Below, piece by piece: positions 6,120 through 53,135 of a stretch of 64,000 nucleotides of DNA. The notes under the pieces were generated by a model that was given only the letters and a program-made list of their open reading frames with translations, made no database searches and was not told the DNA's origin. The position numbers and the translations under genes are program-made. Each line of letters begins with the position of its first letter. Position 1 is the stretch's first letter. Origin of the DNA: Octopus vulgaris (taxonomy: Eukaryota); contig OX597819.1 of assembly GCA_951406725.2 (NCBI GenBank), positions 21,080,001 to 21,144,000 of the forward strand, given 5' to 3'.

Positions 6120-6907
<788 letters not shown>

Positions 6908-7520: not shown

Positions 7521-7830
7521 TATTCGTTCGTGATATTGGCAATGGATTGTTCCATCTTGTATCTTGTTACAGTTACGACACAGCGGAGACCCTGTGTTAG
7601 ATAATATCGCATAATCACAATATGACTCTCCCCACATACAATATATGTTATTTGTAATTTCAGAAGGCAACCAACGGTTTCTTGTGAAGGGATGCTCCCA
7701 ATTGTTTAACCGTGTCATATGGGATTCGTTTCGATTTTGGATAAGAATACACAGGATTACACGAATGAGTTATTGAGCGCACATACTCACCGTTCGATAT
7801 TAGCATGCGCATGTATATATAGAGACGTGC

Positions 7831-7884
<54 letters not shown>

Positions 7885-8156
7885 ATATATGTATGACTAT
7901 ATGCGTGTATTGAGAAACGAAACTAAGAATATACTCTGAGAACTCTATCCTCAATAAAAGGAAGAATATATTTAAATTATTATCAAAATATAGAACATGT
8001 TTCAATCGTAAATAAGACGATTATTATTGCAATAAGACAACATAAAATGTCTTGAAATAAATGAAATTTATCTTTTATGAAATCAGTTCTTTTCTTTCGA
8101 ATGCATTGATTACAAAATCCACAATGGGTACTTCTAATAGGCTTCGTTATAAAGCG

Positions 8157-9748: not shown

Positions 9749-10347
9749 ATATATATATATATCTGTATGTGTATATATATATATATATATATTTCGCTTT
9801 GAGATTTGATTTGCAAGATTTGCTTTGTGAGTTCGTGTTTTGAAGCATATTCTGTTGTGTCTAGGGAGAGTCATTTTCTTTTTGTGCTTTATGATTTAAT
9901 ACACTCACCGGTAAAATTTCCACTTCTTTCTTATTTTTATTTTCCTAAAATTTTCGTTGCATCTTGCAAACATTTCAGTTGTCTTGACTGTCCGTTATTT
10001 ACGTTTTATTACTTCTTGCGCTAGTGCGTGGGTCAGTGTGTGTGTTTGTGCCTATGCATGCATGCATATATGTATGCATGTGTGTGTATGTATATATGTG
10101 TGTGCATGCATATGTATACCTCTATGTATGTGTCTACATCTGTATGTATTCTGCATATTCATGTGCTTGCATGTCCGTGTTTGTGTATTTTTATGCATGT
10201 GTATGTGTGCGTGTGTGTGTTTGTATATGTATGCGCGTCTGTCTCCTAGTGTGTGCATGTCTGAGTGCGTGTGGGTGTGTGTTTTGCAACTATGTACCGT
10301 GTTTGCATGTATGGAATTATATCTAGGGCAGGTAGCACTGGTATCAT

Positions 10348-10965
10348 TACCAGTGGTACCTGCCCTAGATATAGAAACAAAGAATGGAATAGAATACAAA
10401 GAACTTGTGACAAAGCAAACAAGGCGAATACCTGGTACAAAAACCGACAAATATCATGGAGTGATGTTTGTAGAGGCCACAGCCCATGGAGAACTAGCCC
10501 ATAGATTTAGAAAAGCTATGAAGGAGACCAAACTCAACATTAAGATTGTTGAAAAGCCAGGGAACTCCGTCAGTTCACAACTTTGTAGGACGTACCCCTT
10601 TAAGAATACCATTTGTACCAATGATAACTGCATGGTATATAGGATTAGCCCTGTCATTAACTGTAGATCTAGAAATGTAGTCCACAGCAAAAGATGCATA
10701 GAAGGTGCTTGTAAAGACATGAACATGACATACATAGGAGTGGCATCTAGGAGCATTGCGGAACGAATGAATTAACATTTGAGACAATACTGACGACAAA
10801 AAGCAGTCCTTCATACGCTACCAGCATGCCAAAGACCAACATGGAGGCAACTTGGGTCAACTTGACATCCGCATCTTATCCAAGCACCCAAAAGATCCAA
10901 CGCCCATAGAAATACGGGAGTACGTCATTTTAAATGAAACTTCCCCAATACTAAATAGGAAATAT
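10348..10965 (+). mobile_element. Penelope-like retroelement relic: linker plus GIY-YIG endonuclease, frameshifted
   Basis: GTCPRYRNKEW..WYK / VMFVEAT..KIVEKPG..C..C..NVVH..C..C..YIGVASRSIAERMN*H / HAKDQHGG..REYVILNETSPILNRK. Confidence 0.85.
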
Positions 10966-34579: not shown

Positions 34580-35280
34580 ACGCATTAGTATGCAGCGCTC
34601 AAGAACAAGCTCTCAAAACAAACTACACCAAATATCATATTGATAAAAGCACTGACTCGCCACAGTGTAGGATGTGCTCTGAGAAGGGAGACACTATAAG
34701 CCATATTAAAGAACGATGTACGCTCGCACAACGCGAATAAAAACGGAAACACAACGATGTTGCCAGATTGTCCACTGGCTATTGTGCGGTGACGCAAACC
34801 TCGAGAAAGCCGAACACAGGTTTGAACAGAAGGCAGAGGGAGTAATGGAAAACGAACATTACAAAATACTCTGGGATTTTAACATACAGTGCGACCAAAT
34901 CATACAGGCGAGACGGCCAGATATCGTGATCATCCATAAAGGTGAAAAAGAAGCAAACATAAAGGAAGCGAAGGTGAAGTTGTATTGGGGAAGAGGCCGG
35001 CCAAACAATAATAATGTAGAAAACCCTGAAATAAGAGAGGATGAGACTGAAGAACAGAGAAACCCCAGCATAAGACACTAGGATATCATAATTCCAAGAA
35101 AAGAGACCAAGAAATTCAAGAAACTTCGACCATAACAATGTGAAACAGTTGAAGAGATTCTGAAGTATATTTTGAAAAAAAGATCTCACAGAAAAAAAGT
35201 GACTTTATCAGATCTGCTTTTATAAGGTGAAGTATTTGGAAAGAAAGGGAAGAAAGTGAACGGACAGAAAGAGCCATGGG
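34580..35280 (+). mobile_element. R4/Dong-clade LINE relic
   Basis: SAQEQALKTNY..CRMCSEKGDTISHI..HWLLC..KILWDFNIQCDQIIQARRPDIVII. Confidence 0.85.
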
Positions 35281-44237: not shown

Positions 44238-44638
44238 GGCGTAGGAGTGGCTGTGTGGTAAGTAGTTTGCATGCTAACCTCATGGTTCGGAGTTCAGTCC
44301 CACTGCGTGGCACCTTGGGCAAATGTCTTCTACTATAGCCTCGGGCCGACCAAAGCCTTGTGAGTGGATTTGGTAGGCGGAAACTGAAAGAAGCCTGTCG
44401 TATATGTATGTGTTTGTTTGTGTGTATAATTTTGTTTGTCTCTGTTTGTCCCCCAGCATCGCTTGACAACTGATGCTGTTGTGTTTACGTCCTCGTAACT
44501 TAGCGTTTCGGCAAAAGAGACCGAAAGAATAAGTACTAGGCTAACAAAGAATAAGTCCTGGGGACGATTTCTTCGACTAACGGCGGTGCTCCAGCATGGC
44601 CGCAGTCAAATGACTGAAACAAGTAAAATTGTAAAGAG
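44238..44638 (+). mobile_element. SINE family A, full length
   Basis: GGCGTAGGAGTGGCTGTGTGGTAAG ... GACTGAAACAAGTAAAA. Confidence 0.92.
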
Positions 44639-46081
44639 ATATATAGTTTGAACAAAAGACCTGATGCAGATGAAAATATTTTACAATAAAGTGTCGTTCG
44701 TTTTAATTAAATCCTGCACCGAGAGGGGTGGGGTTCTGAAATGATGGATTCTTCTTTACCTCGATGCAAACGGACTAATTTAAAAATATAGTGCGATCAA
44801 ATCTGTCCCTATGTCTTTCAGACTAAGTTTATTTTGTATGTACGATGAACGCTGTGTAACTAAATAGATGGATTACTTTTCAGACGTCACATAGTCCTGA
44901 GCTCGACTCATTTGAGTGACATCTTAAGTGCTTTTTTTTTAACCAAAGACTTGAGTCCATTCAAACTGTGTAACTGAAATTAGATAGAAATTCCTTAGAA
45001 GCTCATCAGATAGACTGAGCGTCTGCTTTAGTTTTCTAAACTTATCGTACACCATTTAACACAAAATCTACTTCATAACTGCATTACATGTATATATGGC
45101 AGTGGAATATTCAGTTACTGAGATGCCACTCCAACCTGTGAGCAACCCACTTAATCTGATAACTGAATACTAATGGACGAAACCAGGATTGATCCAGTGT
45201 CCGTTATTATTTATGCATAGGATTTGAGTAATTTCAGCTAAAGTTTTTCCTAGTTACGGGATTTTGAACGAATGAAACAGCTTTTAGTTGGTTCCTCGCC
45301 TTCCTAGCTCTTTATTTCATTTGGACCTTTCAGATAATGACTCATATCATTTTGAATGTAATGAAATAAGGACAATACTCATTAAATAGTTTGCCTGTTA
45401 TATAAGAGTTGGTCTGGAAGTAATCAACGAAATAATCGCGATTATTTGTTACGTCGTATAATAGAAATCTAGTGTAAAACACATAGAATCGCAACGTGTT
45501 TTCATTATTCCTTGCTGTCATTATGCTCAACAAAACTGTAATTCTTAGGTCCATAGATATAACTACTAATGATTCCTCATACTATAAATCGAAGTCTGTC
45601 AGCGATTAATGTGAAGAGGCACTTGAACGTGTAACAATGCTATGAATCTGTACAACATGGCGAACCGGAACTACCTTCGTTTTCGTAATCATTTAGTCAA
45701 CGGAATCGAATGCAACGTTAGGTTTATTAGTTTATCGAACAGAGATAAACTAAATACCACGTCGACCGTGGCAGATTTTGCATTGAAAGACTTAAGGAAT
45801 CTCATATTTAGTGCCAAGTGTATTCATTATCGATTTCATAACATGAAATGAGAGAATTGAGCGAAATTATTAGATAAGTTATGTCAACTACAAAACAAAA
45901 ATGTTTTAAATAACTCATACATTTCAAAGTGTTAATTTCAAACATTAATACAATTATAACTTAATTTTTCAATCGTTCAGAAAGAATGATAGATTGCATA
46001 ATACCGTCATTCCGACCACGGAATACAAGACATATGAGAACTATCGAAGTACTTCGATTTTTGTCTGAATATCTTCAACCG

Positions 46082-49107: not shown

Positions 49108-49539
49108 CTGAAAATACTGGACCCTTTCCACACAAGAAAAAATATAGTCAAATTTGTCATTGAAAATGCACCTAAATTTTAAACACTTGTAATTGTTTAA
49201 AATGTATTTATTTACACATATACCAACCTAGTTTCAACAATGGTAACACGTTTTAACAATGGTAACAATTTAGAATTATGAATTAGAAAAACACTTTCAA
49301 AAATTTCGATGTTGACAAGTTTAAATGTTCATAACAGTCAAACTGTGCATCAGTTTGTTTGAATCTACAAAGCTCATGTTAGTAGCGATCGACAAGAAAT
49401 GAATATCAGCAAAGTTTCAGTCATACTATGTTAAGTGAGGAGAAATGAAGATAGTAAAAATAGCTATTTAGTTTACAATTTCTCTGTTCATCTTTCCGTC
49501 GTGTGTAGCAACATTTGCTTGTAACGGATGAGTTTGGAC

Positions 49540-50300
49540 TCCGGTGTATTTTTTTTTCTGCGAGCGGATCTGATATTTGATTCGTTAAAGTACTGGTGAC
49601 GGTTTATTTTTCTGGTGGTCAATATTGTCGTTCTGCCTGGTTGGCTTCTCTGTAGGGAACGGTCATCAGTCGTTCCAGCTGCTTTATTCTCTTAAAGTGT
49701 CTTTTCTTTTTTTTTCTTTTGTATTTGCTGAAGTTCGTTTTTGATTGGTCCAGAGTTAGGTGAAGGCAGCAACTGGTGTTAGTAAATTTCATTGATCTTG
49801 AGATAGGTAACATCGGTAATATGGTGTTATTTTATGGTGATTTGGAATTGCGGTTTCAAAACCAGGGTGGAAGCCTGTTACTAAAGTTTAAAATTGTTGT
49901 TCCTGGTTGTCTTTTTATGGAGAAATTAAATATTTTTTTCCTTTTTCTCTTTAGTGTTTTTCTTCTTTCTAAAGGATATTTAGCTGTGGTTTATAGCTTT
50001 TAATGAGGATGAATTCCTTATTTAAACGGAGTTGTGTGGCCCCGGCATTATTGCCTGTGCACAGTTAGTCTGTCCCTCAATGTTAAACTAGTTTGATCTG
50101 AGTAGTTTCCACCACACCCTCCACATTTGGGAAGACATATTAATTTGTATGTTGAGCCCTTTAAGAGAAAGATGCAAGTTCCGCAGTTAGAGCGGTTGCA
50201 TTTCTTTGCTAGTAGGGTTGTAGCTTTGGTGGGTAATTTGGCGCTGGTGAAAATTTGTTATAAATATTTGTATTCGTTTACATTGAAACTTTTCATGACG
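49540..50300 (-). mobile_element. Penelope-like relic (Cys linker plus GIY-YIG) with internal deletions and 3' UTR
   Basis: FTSAKLP..KCNRSNCGTC..CGGCGGNYSDQTSLTLRDRLTVHRQ / RLNKEFILIKSYKPQLN. Confidence 0.75.
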
Positions 50301-50340
50301 TTTTTCTAATTCATCATTTTACATTTTTAACATTGATAAA

Positions 50341-50606: not shown

Positions 50607-50778
50607 TATATACAAATAAGAAAATGGAGGAACAGATTCATTTCAATCATCAACTTACAGATATTACCAAGCCATATTATTTATTAACTACCTGAATAGG
50701 AACAACCAAATCCAACAAAATAAAACAATATACATCAATAAGTAAGATAATACCATAAAAATAATACACATAAAATGG

Positions 50779-50918
50779 ATCTTACAGCTGTTTCAGCCTG
50801 TAGATGAATGAATCTCATTCTGCCTATATTAGTCAGATGTATTGAGGTAATATGCAGTTAAGAATGAGTTACTTATATATATATATATATATATATATCT
50901 CAAGGCCTCGTCAGAGAT
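50779..50918 (-). ncRNA. Type I hammerhead ribozyme with intact core and long helix II insert
   Basis: Reverse complement ATCT-CTGACGA-GGCCT-(103 nt)-AGGCT-GAAA-CAGCTG-TA-AGAT. Helices I, II and III all pair. Confidence 0.75.
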
Positions 50919-50984
50919 TATAAAGTACAATTATAAAAATATAAAAATGCAACTATAAATATGAAACAAAATGCACATACACAA

Positions 50985-51019
<35 letters not shown>

Positions 51020-51221
51020 TACATATATAATAATACACATACACATAAGGTTACAGATAATCAAATATATATATACTGGAGTATACATATACATCCACAT
51101 CAATGGGTACATATACCAAGTACAAAGTTCATTAAATTACCAAAACTATTAATATTATTATTATTATTATTAATAATAATAATAATAATACCGATATTAG
51201 ATTGTGTGCATTCTGCTATTC

Positions 51222-51258
<37 letters not shown>

Positions 51259-52730
51259 TTTAAACAATTATAAGTTTTTCAAATTTAGGTGCCTTTTCAA
51301 CAACAACTTTGCCTGTATATATAGGCAAATATATCTCGAGTGGGGAGAAAATATATTAAAGAAATAACATTTATCTTATTAAGCTCTAATTTAAGGTTGC
51401 TAAAGTGATATACAGGGATATGTGTAAACGATCATGGAGGTATGTATGTGATTGCAATGCGTGGGGTGGGGTGAATTTATATTTAGATTTATGGAAGAAT
51501 TTAAAAGGACAGAAGACTTTGTGCTAACACATTGTGAAGGCTTCGCTGTGTTTGGTAAGCAATTGTAGTGAGTTACGGGTTCAAATTGTAAGGGCTTCTT
51601 TTAAGTAGAGTCCACAAGTTACGGATCTAATCGGAAAGTACCTCTTTAAACATTATATAGATATATATACACATACACGTGAAAATTCACAGGTACTTGG
51701 TTAGCACTACACTTCCACTACAACATTGGCCCATAATTCGCACTAAGAAAGAATTAGTTCAGTTTCTGCCTTGTAACATAGTTCACTGGTTGTAACTGAA
51801 ATGCAATCGACGGTTGCTGAGAGCAAAGTTGTTCTAGAAACAGGCGCACGTGCAAGCACACACACATATATTTATCGGCCTTTATACGTACACTAATAAA
51901 TACATAGATACATATATTTATAGGTGATTGTGTGAGCGAATACGTATTTCTCTCTGTCTCTGTGTATCTTTGCGCGTACATGTATATGTATATCCCAGTG
52001 GTAAAAATACATTATCATATTTGTGTATGTAAAGTAGGTCGCTGCTCTTCAACAGGTAACCATTCGGTAAGAAAGTTCAATTACGTGAGTATTATGCTAA
52101 GTATTTCACTCGATAGAATTTACTAAATTCCCATTGGACGATTTCCAGCGACCAAAACCAGACACACCGCCATAGTGAACATGTAATTCATATATGCTTT
52201 TACGTCTAAAATAACCTGAGGGAAATATAAAATAATCTGAAGAAATATTAAGTAATATTACGGAGAAAGTTTTCTCTTTTCACGAATATACTAAATTCAT
52301 TTCAATTCGCCATTTGCCATAACAAATTTCCTCATCATTTCGGATTTATTTGCCGATAGCTATAGAGACTTATCCAAAACTAGTGAAATTAAATCTCTGT
52401 ATTGTAATTAACCAACTCAAAAGCCTATATTCATTTGAAGTTACCAATTAAATGAAGGAATATTTTATAGGCTGTTCAGGTTAAGGAAGTGAAATATGAA
52501 TTTTATTCGTAGTATTAGCAATATGTGGATTTCACCTAATTGATATCCAAAATATGGTGCTTGATTACTTTGGACAACCACATGAAATGTGGCACGTAAA
52601 ATTTCATCAGAATACCAACACAATGTATTCAATCTTCTTCTCCCTGCCTTGGCAAACCTCAGAAAATTCTTTATAAAGGGGCCAAGAAATCTAAATTTGA
52701 ACCATCTTTTGAGAAATTCAGTGCCACTGT

Positions 52731-53135
52731 GTGGCTGTGCGTTAAGTGGCTTGTCTACTAACCACATGGTTCCGGGTTCAGTCCCACTGCGTGGCACCTT
52801 GGGCAAGTGTCTTCTACTATAGCCTCGGGCCGACCAAAGCCTTGTGAGTGGATTTGGTAAACGGAAACTGAAAGAAGCCCGTCGTATATATGTATATATA
52901 TGTATGTACGTGTATGTTTGTGTGTCTGTGTTTGTCCCTTAGCATTGCATAACCGATGCTAGTGTGTTTACGTCGCCGTCACCTAGCGGTTCGGCAAAAG
53001 AAACCGATAGAATAAGTACTGGGCTTGCAAAGAATAAGTCCTGGGGTCGATTTGCTCGACTAAAGGCGGTGCTCCAGCATGGCCGCAGTCAAATGACTGA
53101 AACAAGTAAAAGAGTAAAAAGAGAGAGTAAAGAGT
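52731..53135 (+). mobile_element. SINE family A
   Basis: GTGGCTGTG..GGTTCAGTCCCACTGCGTGGCACC..GACTGAAACAAGTAAAAGAG. Confidence 0.92.

What the first reader, a model, noticed from the sequence alone, without database searches (positions are those of the whole stretch)
50779..50918. Intact hammerhead whose helix II carries a 103-nt insert containing a (TA)n microsatellite
All core nucleotides are canonical: CUGACGA, GAAA and a GUA cleavage site. Helix I is ATCT/AGAT, helix II is GGCCT/AGGCT, and helix III is the palindrome ACAGCTGT typical of dimer-acting minimal Penelope hammerheads. The insert self-pairs (CTCATTCT/AGAATGAG) and includes about 24 nt of TA. Standard descriptors with short loop limits would probably miss it.
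Basis: partly seen in the sequence, partly recalled or inferred. Interest (0 to 1): 0.75.

Follow-up and report, generated by a model that had tools for sequence, protein, structure and literature searches.

The report
Long-armed hammerhead of Hydra-clade retrotransposons
This is the broken-off end of a Penelope-type jumping gene whose self-cutting RNA motif carries, across the whole family of over 600 copies, a side arm roughly ten times the usual size that is predicted to fold as one long hairpin; this copy is likely weakened, and cutting has not been shown.

Summary
The hammerhead is real and lies as described (minus strand 50918-50779, 103 nt between the helix II arms, GUA site). Two points need correcting. 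Helix II closes with G-U, not G-C. The 'insert' is not a one-off event: 619 exact-pattern copies in this genome keep both half-cores 82-112 nt apart (controls 0), against 1 short-spaced copy. The motif sits in the pseudo-LTR of an endonuclease-bearing Penelope-like element with the Hydra-clade protein motifs; young sister copies have an intact 947-aa ORF between two such hammerheads 5.6 kb apart. Across subfamilies 54-83% alike, stem II stays 85-110 nt and is predicted to fold as an irregular rod (19 of 27 representatives z<-2; a few compensatory pairs; not recovered on the deepest alignment). The (TA)n run belongs to one subfamily and is incidental. The window copy is a 614-nt 5'-truncated fragment whose helix II is predicted to be mostly unpaired (P 0.04). 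Published Hydra hammerheads have 3-10 nt loops. This scan noted long-stem-II hammerheads before, in retrozyme-like repeats of this and another genome. Verdict: new variant of a known kind; cleavage untested.

The parts
50612..51225 (-). 5'-truncated 3' end (3' UTR remnant + pseudo-LTR) of a Hydra-clade Penelope-like element, about 614 nt, bounded by (TA)15 at its 5' end and a short TA run at its 3' end
   Evidence: homology limits against 29 other copies; coordinates
50779..50918 (-). type I hammerhead motif
50915..50918 (-). helix I, 5' strand (ATCT)
50908..50914 (-). core CUGACGA (positions 3-9)
50903..50907 (-). helix II base, 5' arm GGCCT
50800..50902 (-). extended stem II (the '103-nt insert'); predicted irregular rod of three further helices
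50874..50898 (-). (TA)n run on the 5' side of the first internal loop; subfamily-specific and length-variable
50861..50873 (-). 5' strand of the middle helix of stem II (pairs with 50821-50810); carries the compensatory changes
50810..50821 (-). 3' strand of the middle helix of stem II
50795..50799 (-). helix II base, 3' arm AGGCT; position 11.1 (50795) is U
50783..50794 (-). core GAAA, palindromic helix III ACAGCTGT and cleavage triplet GUA; predicted cut after 50783
50779..50782 (-). helix I, 3' strand (AGAT)
50612..50778 (-). pseudo-LTR downstream of the cut site, ending at the nearer of the family's two fixed 3' ends

Best explanation
The stretch is the hammerhead motif in the terminal repeat of a 5'-truncated Hydra-clade Penelope-like retrotransposon, and its 103-nt 'insert' is the family's normal, greatly lengthened stem II, predicted to fold as one long hairpin that would hold the two half-cores together so that the RNA likely cuts as a pair. 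Shown: family membership, linkage to RT + GIY-YIG ORFs, pLTR-ORF-pLTR layout with two hammerheads 5.6 kb apart in young copies, conserved stem length. Predicted: the rod fold and the intermolecular helix III. Inferred from published Penelope hammerheads: read-through RNA from a tandem unit carries two motifs whose ACAGCUGU palindromes pair, giving slow, possibly protein-assisted cleavage after GUA/GUC and a unit-length RNA that starts about 520 nt before the AUG. The window copy has no partner in cis, closes helix II with G-U and is likely a weak or silent relic; its (TA)12 is slippage after insertion.
For: Linked long-spacer pattern 552 + 67 matches, controls 0; short-spacer family pattern 1 match. 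L056 carries RT and GIY-YIG remnants about 3 kb upstream of the same hammerhead, collinear with L054. L105 and L106: ORF of 960/962 codons stop to stop between two long-stem hammerheads 5579 and 5604 nt apart. Hydra motifs RWR, DKT, CxCx5C, CxxC, CxH present; GxKF/Y and CX2-5CxxC absent (definitions). 3' ends run into (TA)n and inverted copies are common. Stem II median 85-105 nt in seven subfamilies whose reference copies are 54-83% alike. 27 of 27 representatives close the stem at its base when the domain is folded alone; 19 of 27 have z<-2 with the closing 4 bp held fixed, against 0 of 8 downstream and 2 of 8 upstream flanks. RNAalifold on 25 copies of subfamilies A, B, E, F predicts the rod unaided, 17 pairs, 5 with two-sided changes; 89.7% of cells paired against 29.6-43.7% for slid partners. 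82 of 93 distinct copies keep AGCT-GU(A/C). Palindrome duplex -13.1 kcal/mol.
Against: No cleavage or transcript-end data. RNAalifold on the deepest 27-row alignment does not recover the rod. The number of pairs with two-sided change does not exceed shuffles (6 vs 6.1; 11 vs 9.9), so the independent compensatory events are few, and the counted structure was drawn from these sequences. Core conservation is partly built into my search patterns. 5' truncation points show no significant pile-up at the cut site: 4 of 81 within 2 nt, P about 0.09. In subfamily A, 33 of 37 copies have U11.1 with median helix II probability 0.26, yet the subfamily multiplied. In Anolis, hammerhead mutants did not impair insertion in vitro (PMC11167929, passages).
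Confidence: 0.72

Rival explanations
1. The long arm is tolerated baggage: an AT-rich stretch grown into loop II that merely has to avoid disrupting helix II, with the ribozyme itself weak or dispensable for the element.
For: Few independent compensatory changes; deep consensus fold fails; apical part varies (77 to 105 nt inside the closing pairs); other hammerhead families in this genome also show AT-rich stem II growth of 36-66 nt (285 matches); subfamily A spread with a weak helix II; hammerhead dispensable in vitro in Anolis.
Against: Length held at 85-110 nt over 17-46% divergence; the young, ORF-intact subfamily has the most stable rod (z -7.3); two-sided changes at adjacent positions of two helices; only 1 short-spaced derivative found.
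Confidence: 0.2
2. The loop is a spliceosomal intron whose removal makes or unmakes a compact hammerhead, as the intron end at helix I does in Drosophila virilis Penelope.
For: Subfamily A reads TTTATCTACAG|G at the helix II 3' arm with a CTAAT-like element upstream; several subfamilies have GTAAGT/GTGAGT near the loop's 5' side (alignments); PLE pLTR introns are known (PMC4209133).
Against: The AG is absent in subfamilies B and E, the donor is absent in E; AG is required anyway to pair with CT of helix II; contigs of guessed-RNA runs cover both half-cores of subfamily E unspliced and show no joint across stem II (RNA status only guessed).
Confidence: 0.04
3. A short canonical hammerhead that took a one-off insertion with a microsatellite at this locus.
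For: The loop contains (TA)12, the preferred target of these elements.
Against: All 30 copies aligned carry the same loop sequence; 619 long-spaced matches against 1 short; subfamilies B, D, E have no long TA run.
Confidence: 0.01
4. The repeat is a non-autonomous retrozyme rather than the end of an autonomous element.
For: Most copies are short and non-coding; this scan noted retrozyme-like 492-nt units with long stem II in the same genome.
Against: No short tandem unit here; 5' ends are spread evenly and the sequence runs collinearly into RT + GIY-YIG ORFs.
Confidence: 0.03

Closest known systems
Hydra-clade Penelope-like elements, e.g. Hydra-1_Obim (Craig et al. 2021, PMC8557442; section 11, passages, supplement tables S1/S2 read)
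   Same: C-terminal GIY-YIG, DKT, RW(K/R), CxCx5C, CxxC/CxH, (TA)n targets, type I hammerhead near the 3' end with short palindromic helix III; U at the position before GAAA is common in their table too
   Different: Published Hydra hammerheads have loop II of 3-10 nt in 26 table rows and elements generally under 3 kb; here stem II is 85-110 nt, the unit is about 5.6 kb with a 2-3 kb 3' UTR and Asn-rich insertions in the ORF
[quoted passage not shown]
   Same: type I topology, 4-bp helix I, palindromic helix III suited to dimers, dispersed truncated and inverted copies
   Different: their 'larger than usual' helix II is 6-8 bp; no extra base between A9 and G10.1 is needed here; G10.1-C11.1 is replaced by G-U in four subfamilies
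PLE-X1_sMoe and PLE-X1_sTam hammerheads (same supplement)
   Same: PLE hammerheads with a longer loop II (35 and 29 nt), marked as deviating
   Different: plant EN-minus elements; loops a third as long; no conserved rod described in the table
Discontinuous Clec2 hammerheads of mammals (Martick et al. 2008, seen only as described in the review PMC2950038, passages)
   Same: half-cores separated by a long stretch and missed by standard patterns
   Different: the review names loops 1 or 3 as the insertion sites sought; single-copy 3' UTR motif, not a retroelement family
PAc Poseidon hammerhead of Anolis (PMC11167929, passages)
   Same: pLTR hammerhead; two RT start sites give two fixed 3' ends
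   Different: compact stem II; ORF starts inside the motif; tail 30-40 bp against about 170 nt here

Membership tests
Hammerhead ribozyme (type I) | core CUGANGA and GAAA with NUH triplet | tested here: met
Hammerhead ribozyme (type I) | three helices round the core, ends in helix I | tested here: met
   helix I 4 bp, II 5 bp, III 2 bp in cis; family pairing 77-79%, 94-96%, 96% of cells
Hammerhead ribozyme (type I) | G10.1-C11.1 closing pair | tested here: inconclusive
   G-U in the window copy and 33 of 37 subfamily A copies; G-C in 19 of 20 B, 8 of 8 B2, 8 of 8 E
Hammerhead ribozyme (type I) | match to an Rfam hammerhead model at gathering score | tested here: not met
   0 matches in the window; expected with a 103-nt loop
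Hammerhead ribozyme (type I) | self-cleavage at the triplet | not testable with these tools
   no raw RNA reads offered; truncation ends not enriched
Minimal dimer-acting PLE hammerheads | palindromic helix III/loop III | tested here: met
   ACAGCTGT; AGCT-GU(A/C) in 82 of 93 copies; duplex -13.1 kcal/mol
Minimal dimer-acting PLE hammerheads | located in both pLTRs flanking an RT-EN ORF | tested here: met
   L105, L106, L110; for the window's own subfamily only the 3' pLTR downstream of a broken ORF was seen (L056)
Minimal dimer-acting PLE hammerheads | compact helix II (about 4-8 bp, short loop) | tested here: not met
   85-110 nt domain
EN+ Penelope-like elements | single ORF, RT followed by GIY-YIG | tested here: met
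   YRDD at 376, VVY...YIG at 828 of 947 aa; 697 relatives at E<=1e-20; Pfam scan itself gave no family
EN+ Penelope-like elements | partial tandems, inverted 5'-truncated copies, two alternative 3' ends (tail) | tested here: met
Hydra clade | DKT instead of DKG; RWK-type motif; no GxKF/Y | tested here: met
   DKT 138, RWR 37, no GxKF/Y
Hydra clade | CxCX5C linker; CxxC and CxH round the conserved E and N; no CCHH | tested here: met
   CNCRNKNKC 809, CSLC 907, CIH 935; same linker in L056; absence of CCHH judged by eye from the translation
Hydra clade | (TA)n insertion preference | tested here: met
Hydra clade | placement in the Hydra clade on an RT tree | not tested
   reference sequences were seen only as cut text in a supplement
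Nematis / Neptune clades | CX2-5CxxC linker and DKG | tested here: not met
Non-LTR retrozymes | short non-coding tandem unit with one hammerhead per unit | tested here: not met
   unit about 5.6 kb and coding

The most novel reading that the evidence does not exclude
The 85-110 nt stem II is a selected structural module of this retrotransposon lineage: a docking rod for the element's own RT-endonuclease (or a dimerisation scaffold) that switches on cleavage only in tandem transcripts. Long-armed hammerheads of this type would then be a hidden class in Penelope-like elements now scored as lacking a ribozyme or having only a half-core.
Probability: 0.2. Interest if true: 0.7.

Novelty: new variant of a known kind. 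Interest (0 to 1): 0.42.

Why it matters
Penelope hammerheads are catalogued with short-loop descriptors (spacer 7-17 nt, half-cores to 35-50 nt, in PMC8557442), so a family of more than 600 copies with a stem II of about 100 nt is invisible to them and to Rfam. It suggests that some Penelope-like families recorded as ribozyme-free may hide long-armed versions. Young copies with intact ORFs and two motifs in cis (L105, L106) give a ready system to ask what these ribozymes do and whether the element's protein activates them. The single copy in the window is an ordinary decayed fragment.

Tried and rejected
Nematis assignment (my first reading): dropped after the motif test. Microsatellite growth as the cause of this copy's weak fold: within subfamily A copies with U11.1, TA length against helix II probability gives rho -0.27, p 0.13 (33 copies); modelling 5 to 17 TA units leaves it at 0.04, whereas modelling C at 11.1 gives 0.99. 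The subfamily bins and the correlation printed were wrong (B copies binned with A) and were redone. Cut-site signature in genomic 5' ends: 4 of 81 within 2 nt, about 1.7 expected, P about 0.09; the set leaves out 20 listed copies already held and 18 unlisted ones; one search had duplicates and was redone. Intron reading: no joint across stem II, but only for subfamily E and only in contigs of guessed-RNA runs; the tool skipped 50860-50980. Expression: no RNA holder listed on record; not evidence either way. Cross-species linkage of the half-cores: contigs of three coded organisms cover 50660-50859 only, so not shown. Pfam found no family for the ORF pieces. A long-stem hammerhead was not found near the more distant relatives L112/L113 (RT 59% alike), so the depth of origin is open. 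Lunse et al. 2016 (PMC5785218) is not held; known to me only through the review PMC6765202 (passages). Six paper searches listed no description of a Penelope hammerhead with a stem II of this length; subscription papers, Repbase/Dfam entries and the supplements of PMC4209133 and of the bioRxiv preprint 10.64898/2026.07.22.740005 were not seen and could hold one.

Full report
Observation. The minus strand holds the motif as described: helix I ATCT/AGAT, core CTGACGA at 50914, helix II GGCCT/AGGCT with 103 nt between, GAAA, palindrome ACAGCTGT, triplet GTA with the predicted cut between 50783 and 50782. The TA run is 25 nt. The closing pair of helix II is G-U. Rfam finds nothing in the window. 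Folded freely, the 140-mer does not adopt the hammerhead shape; the fully constrained shape lies about 8 kcal/mol above the free ensemble, which is partly expected for a motif with a 2-bp helix III.

Copy number and linkage. The window lies in a 2.8-Gb animal genome. A DNA search gave 994 candidates, of which 40 were scored, yielding 44 matches; all 30 loci fetched carry the same long loop. An exact pattern joining both half-cores across 82-112 nt gives 552 matches with U and 67 with C at position 11.1, controls 0; the family pattern with a 3-30 nt spacer gives 1 (L031, which looks like a deletion). Among 60 distinct subfamily A copies with both half-cores the loop is 71-153 nt, median 90, and the longest ones differ by TA growth up to 75 nt. 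Many copies lack the 5' half-core only because they are 5'-truncated: 46 of 81 anchored copies appear to end within the motif, a few of them long TA expansions that my aligner stopped at.

Parent element. Walking upstream led to L056 and L054, where RT and GIY-YIG remnants lie on the same strand, in L056 about 3 kb before the same hammerhead. A protein search in the genome led to young sister copies: L105 and L106 have an open frame of 960/962 codons between two long-stem hammerheads 5579 and 5604 nt apart. The 947-aa protein has RWR, DKT, YRDD, CxCx5C, VVY...YIG, CxxC and CxH, and lacks GxKF/Y and CX2-5CxxC: the diagnostic set of the Hydra clade (PMC8557442 section 11). The best named database relatives are from an octopod. 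Copies end at two fixed 3' points about 170 nt apart, both followed by (TA)n in most cases, and inverted partners are frequent. The window copy spans about 51225-50612 and uses the nearer end. No tree was built, so clade membership rests on motifs.

What the loop is. From the loci held at that point, 93 distinct motifs fall into seven subfamilies whose reference copies are 54-83% alike; stem II medians are 85-105 nt; the TA run has median 11 nt in the window's subfamily and 4-9 nt in the others. After dropping 4 aberrant rows and clustering at 90%, 27 representatives all close the stem at its base when it is folded alone, and 19 of 27 have z<-2 when the interior is shuffled with the closing 4 bp fixed (mean -2.8; window copy -1.5; young copy -7.3); flanks give 0 of 8 and 2 of 8. 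On a hand-picked, cleanly aligned set of 25 copies from subfamilies A, B, E and F, RNAalifold predicts the rod unaided with 5 of 17 pairs changed on both sides. Against this, the deepest alignment gives no rod, and the count of pairs with two-sided change is no higher than in shuffles, although cells paired and covariation score are. I read this as a real but loosely kept rod with few independent compensatory events.

State of this copy. Predicted pairing of helix II in the monomer is 0.04 here, median 0.26 in 33 subfamily A copies with U11.1, 1.0 in the 4 with C11.1, and medians of 0.98-1.0 in the other subfamilies. Modelling shows position 11.1, not TA length, to be the main cause. U11.1 is likely CpG decay in a source element (inference). 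Subfamilies C, D and F also have U but a stronger adjoining helix.

How it likely works. Minimal Penelope hammerheads with palindromic helix III are reported to cut weakly and as dimers (PMC4209133, parts 1-2; review PMC6765202, passages); in Anolis cleavage needed the element's protein and was dispensable for insertion in vitro (PMC11167929, passages). By inference, RNA read through a tandem unit carries two motifs that pair through ACAGCUGU (-13.1 kcal/mol for the 14-mer duplex) and cut to release a unit-length RNA starting about 520 nt before the AUG (L106: cut after 882, AUG at 1401). The rod would keep the half-cores together; whether it does more is open. I found no in vivo trace of cutting: 5' truncations are spread evenly, with 4 of 81 within 2 nt of the site (P about 0.09). 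Only contigs were offered; in guessed-RNA runs one contig covers both half-cores and the cut site of the young subfamily unspliced, and no joint crosses stem II.

Comparison and novelty. The 26 Hydra rows in the published table have loop II of 3-10 nt; the longest PLE loops there are 35 and 29 nt. Six searches listed no Penelope hammerhead with a stem II near 100 nt; unseen supplements and repeat databases could hold one. Long interruptions in hammerheads are known in principle (Clec2, via review). In this genome stem II growth is not unique: 285 matches with 36-66 nt spacers belong mostly to other families and 63 have short spacers. Earlier notes of this scan describe long-stem-II hammerheads in retrozyme-like repeats of this and another genome; a sequence look-up found no note on this family. 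Verdict: new variant of a known kind, interest 0.42.

Noticed in passing
L056 oriented 7590-8070; many loci: The family has two fixed 3' ends about 170 nt apart, far longer than the 30-40 bp tail described for Penelope-like elements; may mark two RT start sites.
   Followed up: partly
L142-L149 and 285 matches: Other hammerhead families in this genome with 36-66 nt AT-rich stem II hairpins and a recurring internal loop near the base; may include the 492-nt retrozyme-like unit noted earlier by this scan.
   Followed up: partly
L057:7058-9882: A young (99.6% identical arms) inverted Penelope-like insertion of another family with a CCGAAGA core variant and a 31-nt stem II.
   Followed up: partly
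L024:825-967, L073:669-811, L110:6456-6586: The CCGA core variant (U4C) also occurs in some copies of the long-armed family.
   Followed up: no
L105:4774-7614, L056, L109: The ORF carries long Asn-rich low-complexity insertions between RT and endonuclease, and the 3' UTR is 2-3 kb, making the unit about twice the usual Hydra size.
   Followed up: no
L110:673-776 and 6468-6574: The two hammerheads flanking this ORF belong to different subfamilies, suggesting insertion of one element into or beside another.
   Followed up: no
L092:1484-1646: A copy with the 5' half-core duplicated in tandem.
   Followed up: no
window 9915-10775 (+) and 34710-35081 (+): Short coding remnants that resemble other retroelements (judged by eye).
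   Followed up: no
window 44247-44639 and 52731-53122; 49142-49222 with 51238-51318; 49252-49336 with 50256-50340: A dispersed repeat present twice (83-88% alike) and two inverted-repeat pairs near the element, probably other mobile elements.
   Followed up: no
window 9474 (+): A second weak hammerhead-like pattern (18-nt loop, non-canonical helix III) from my relaxed scan; may be chance.
   Followed up: no
window about 50610-50400 (-), also L017 and L025: Another dispersed repeat abuts the element's 3' end and recurs beside it at two other loci at 94-95% identity.
   Followed up: no
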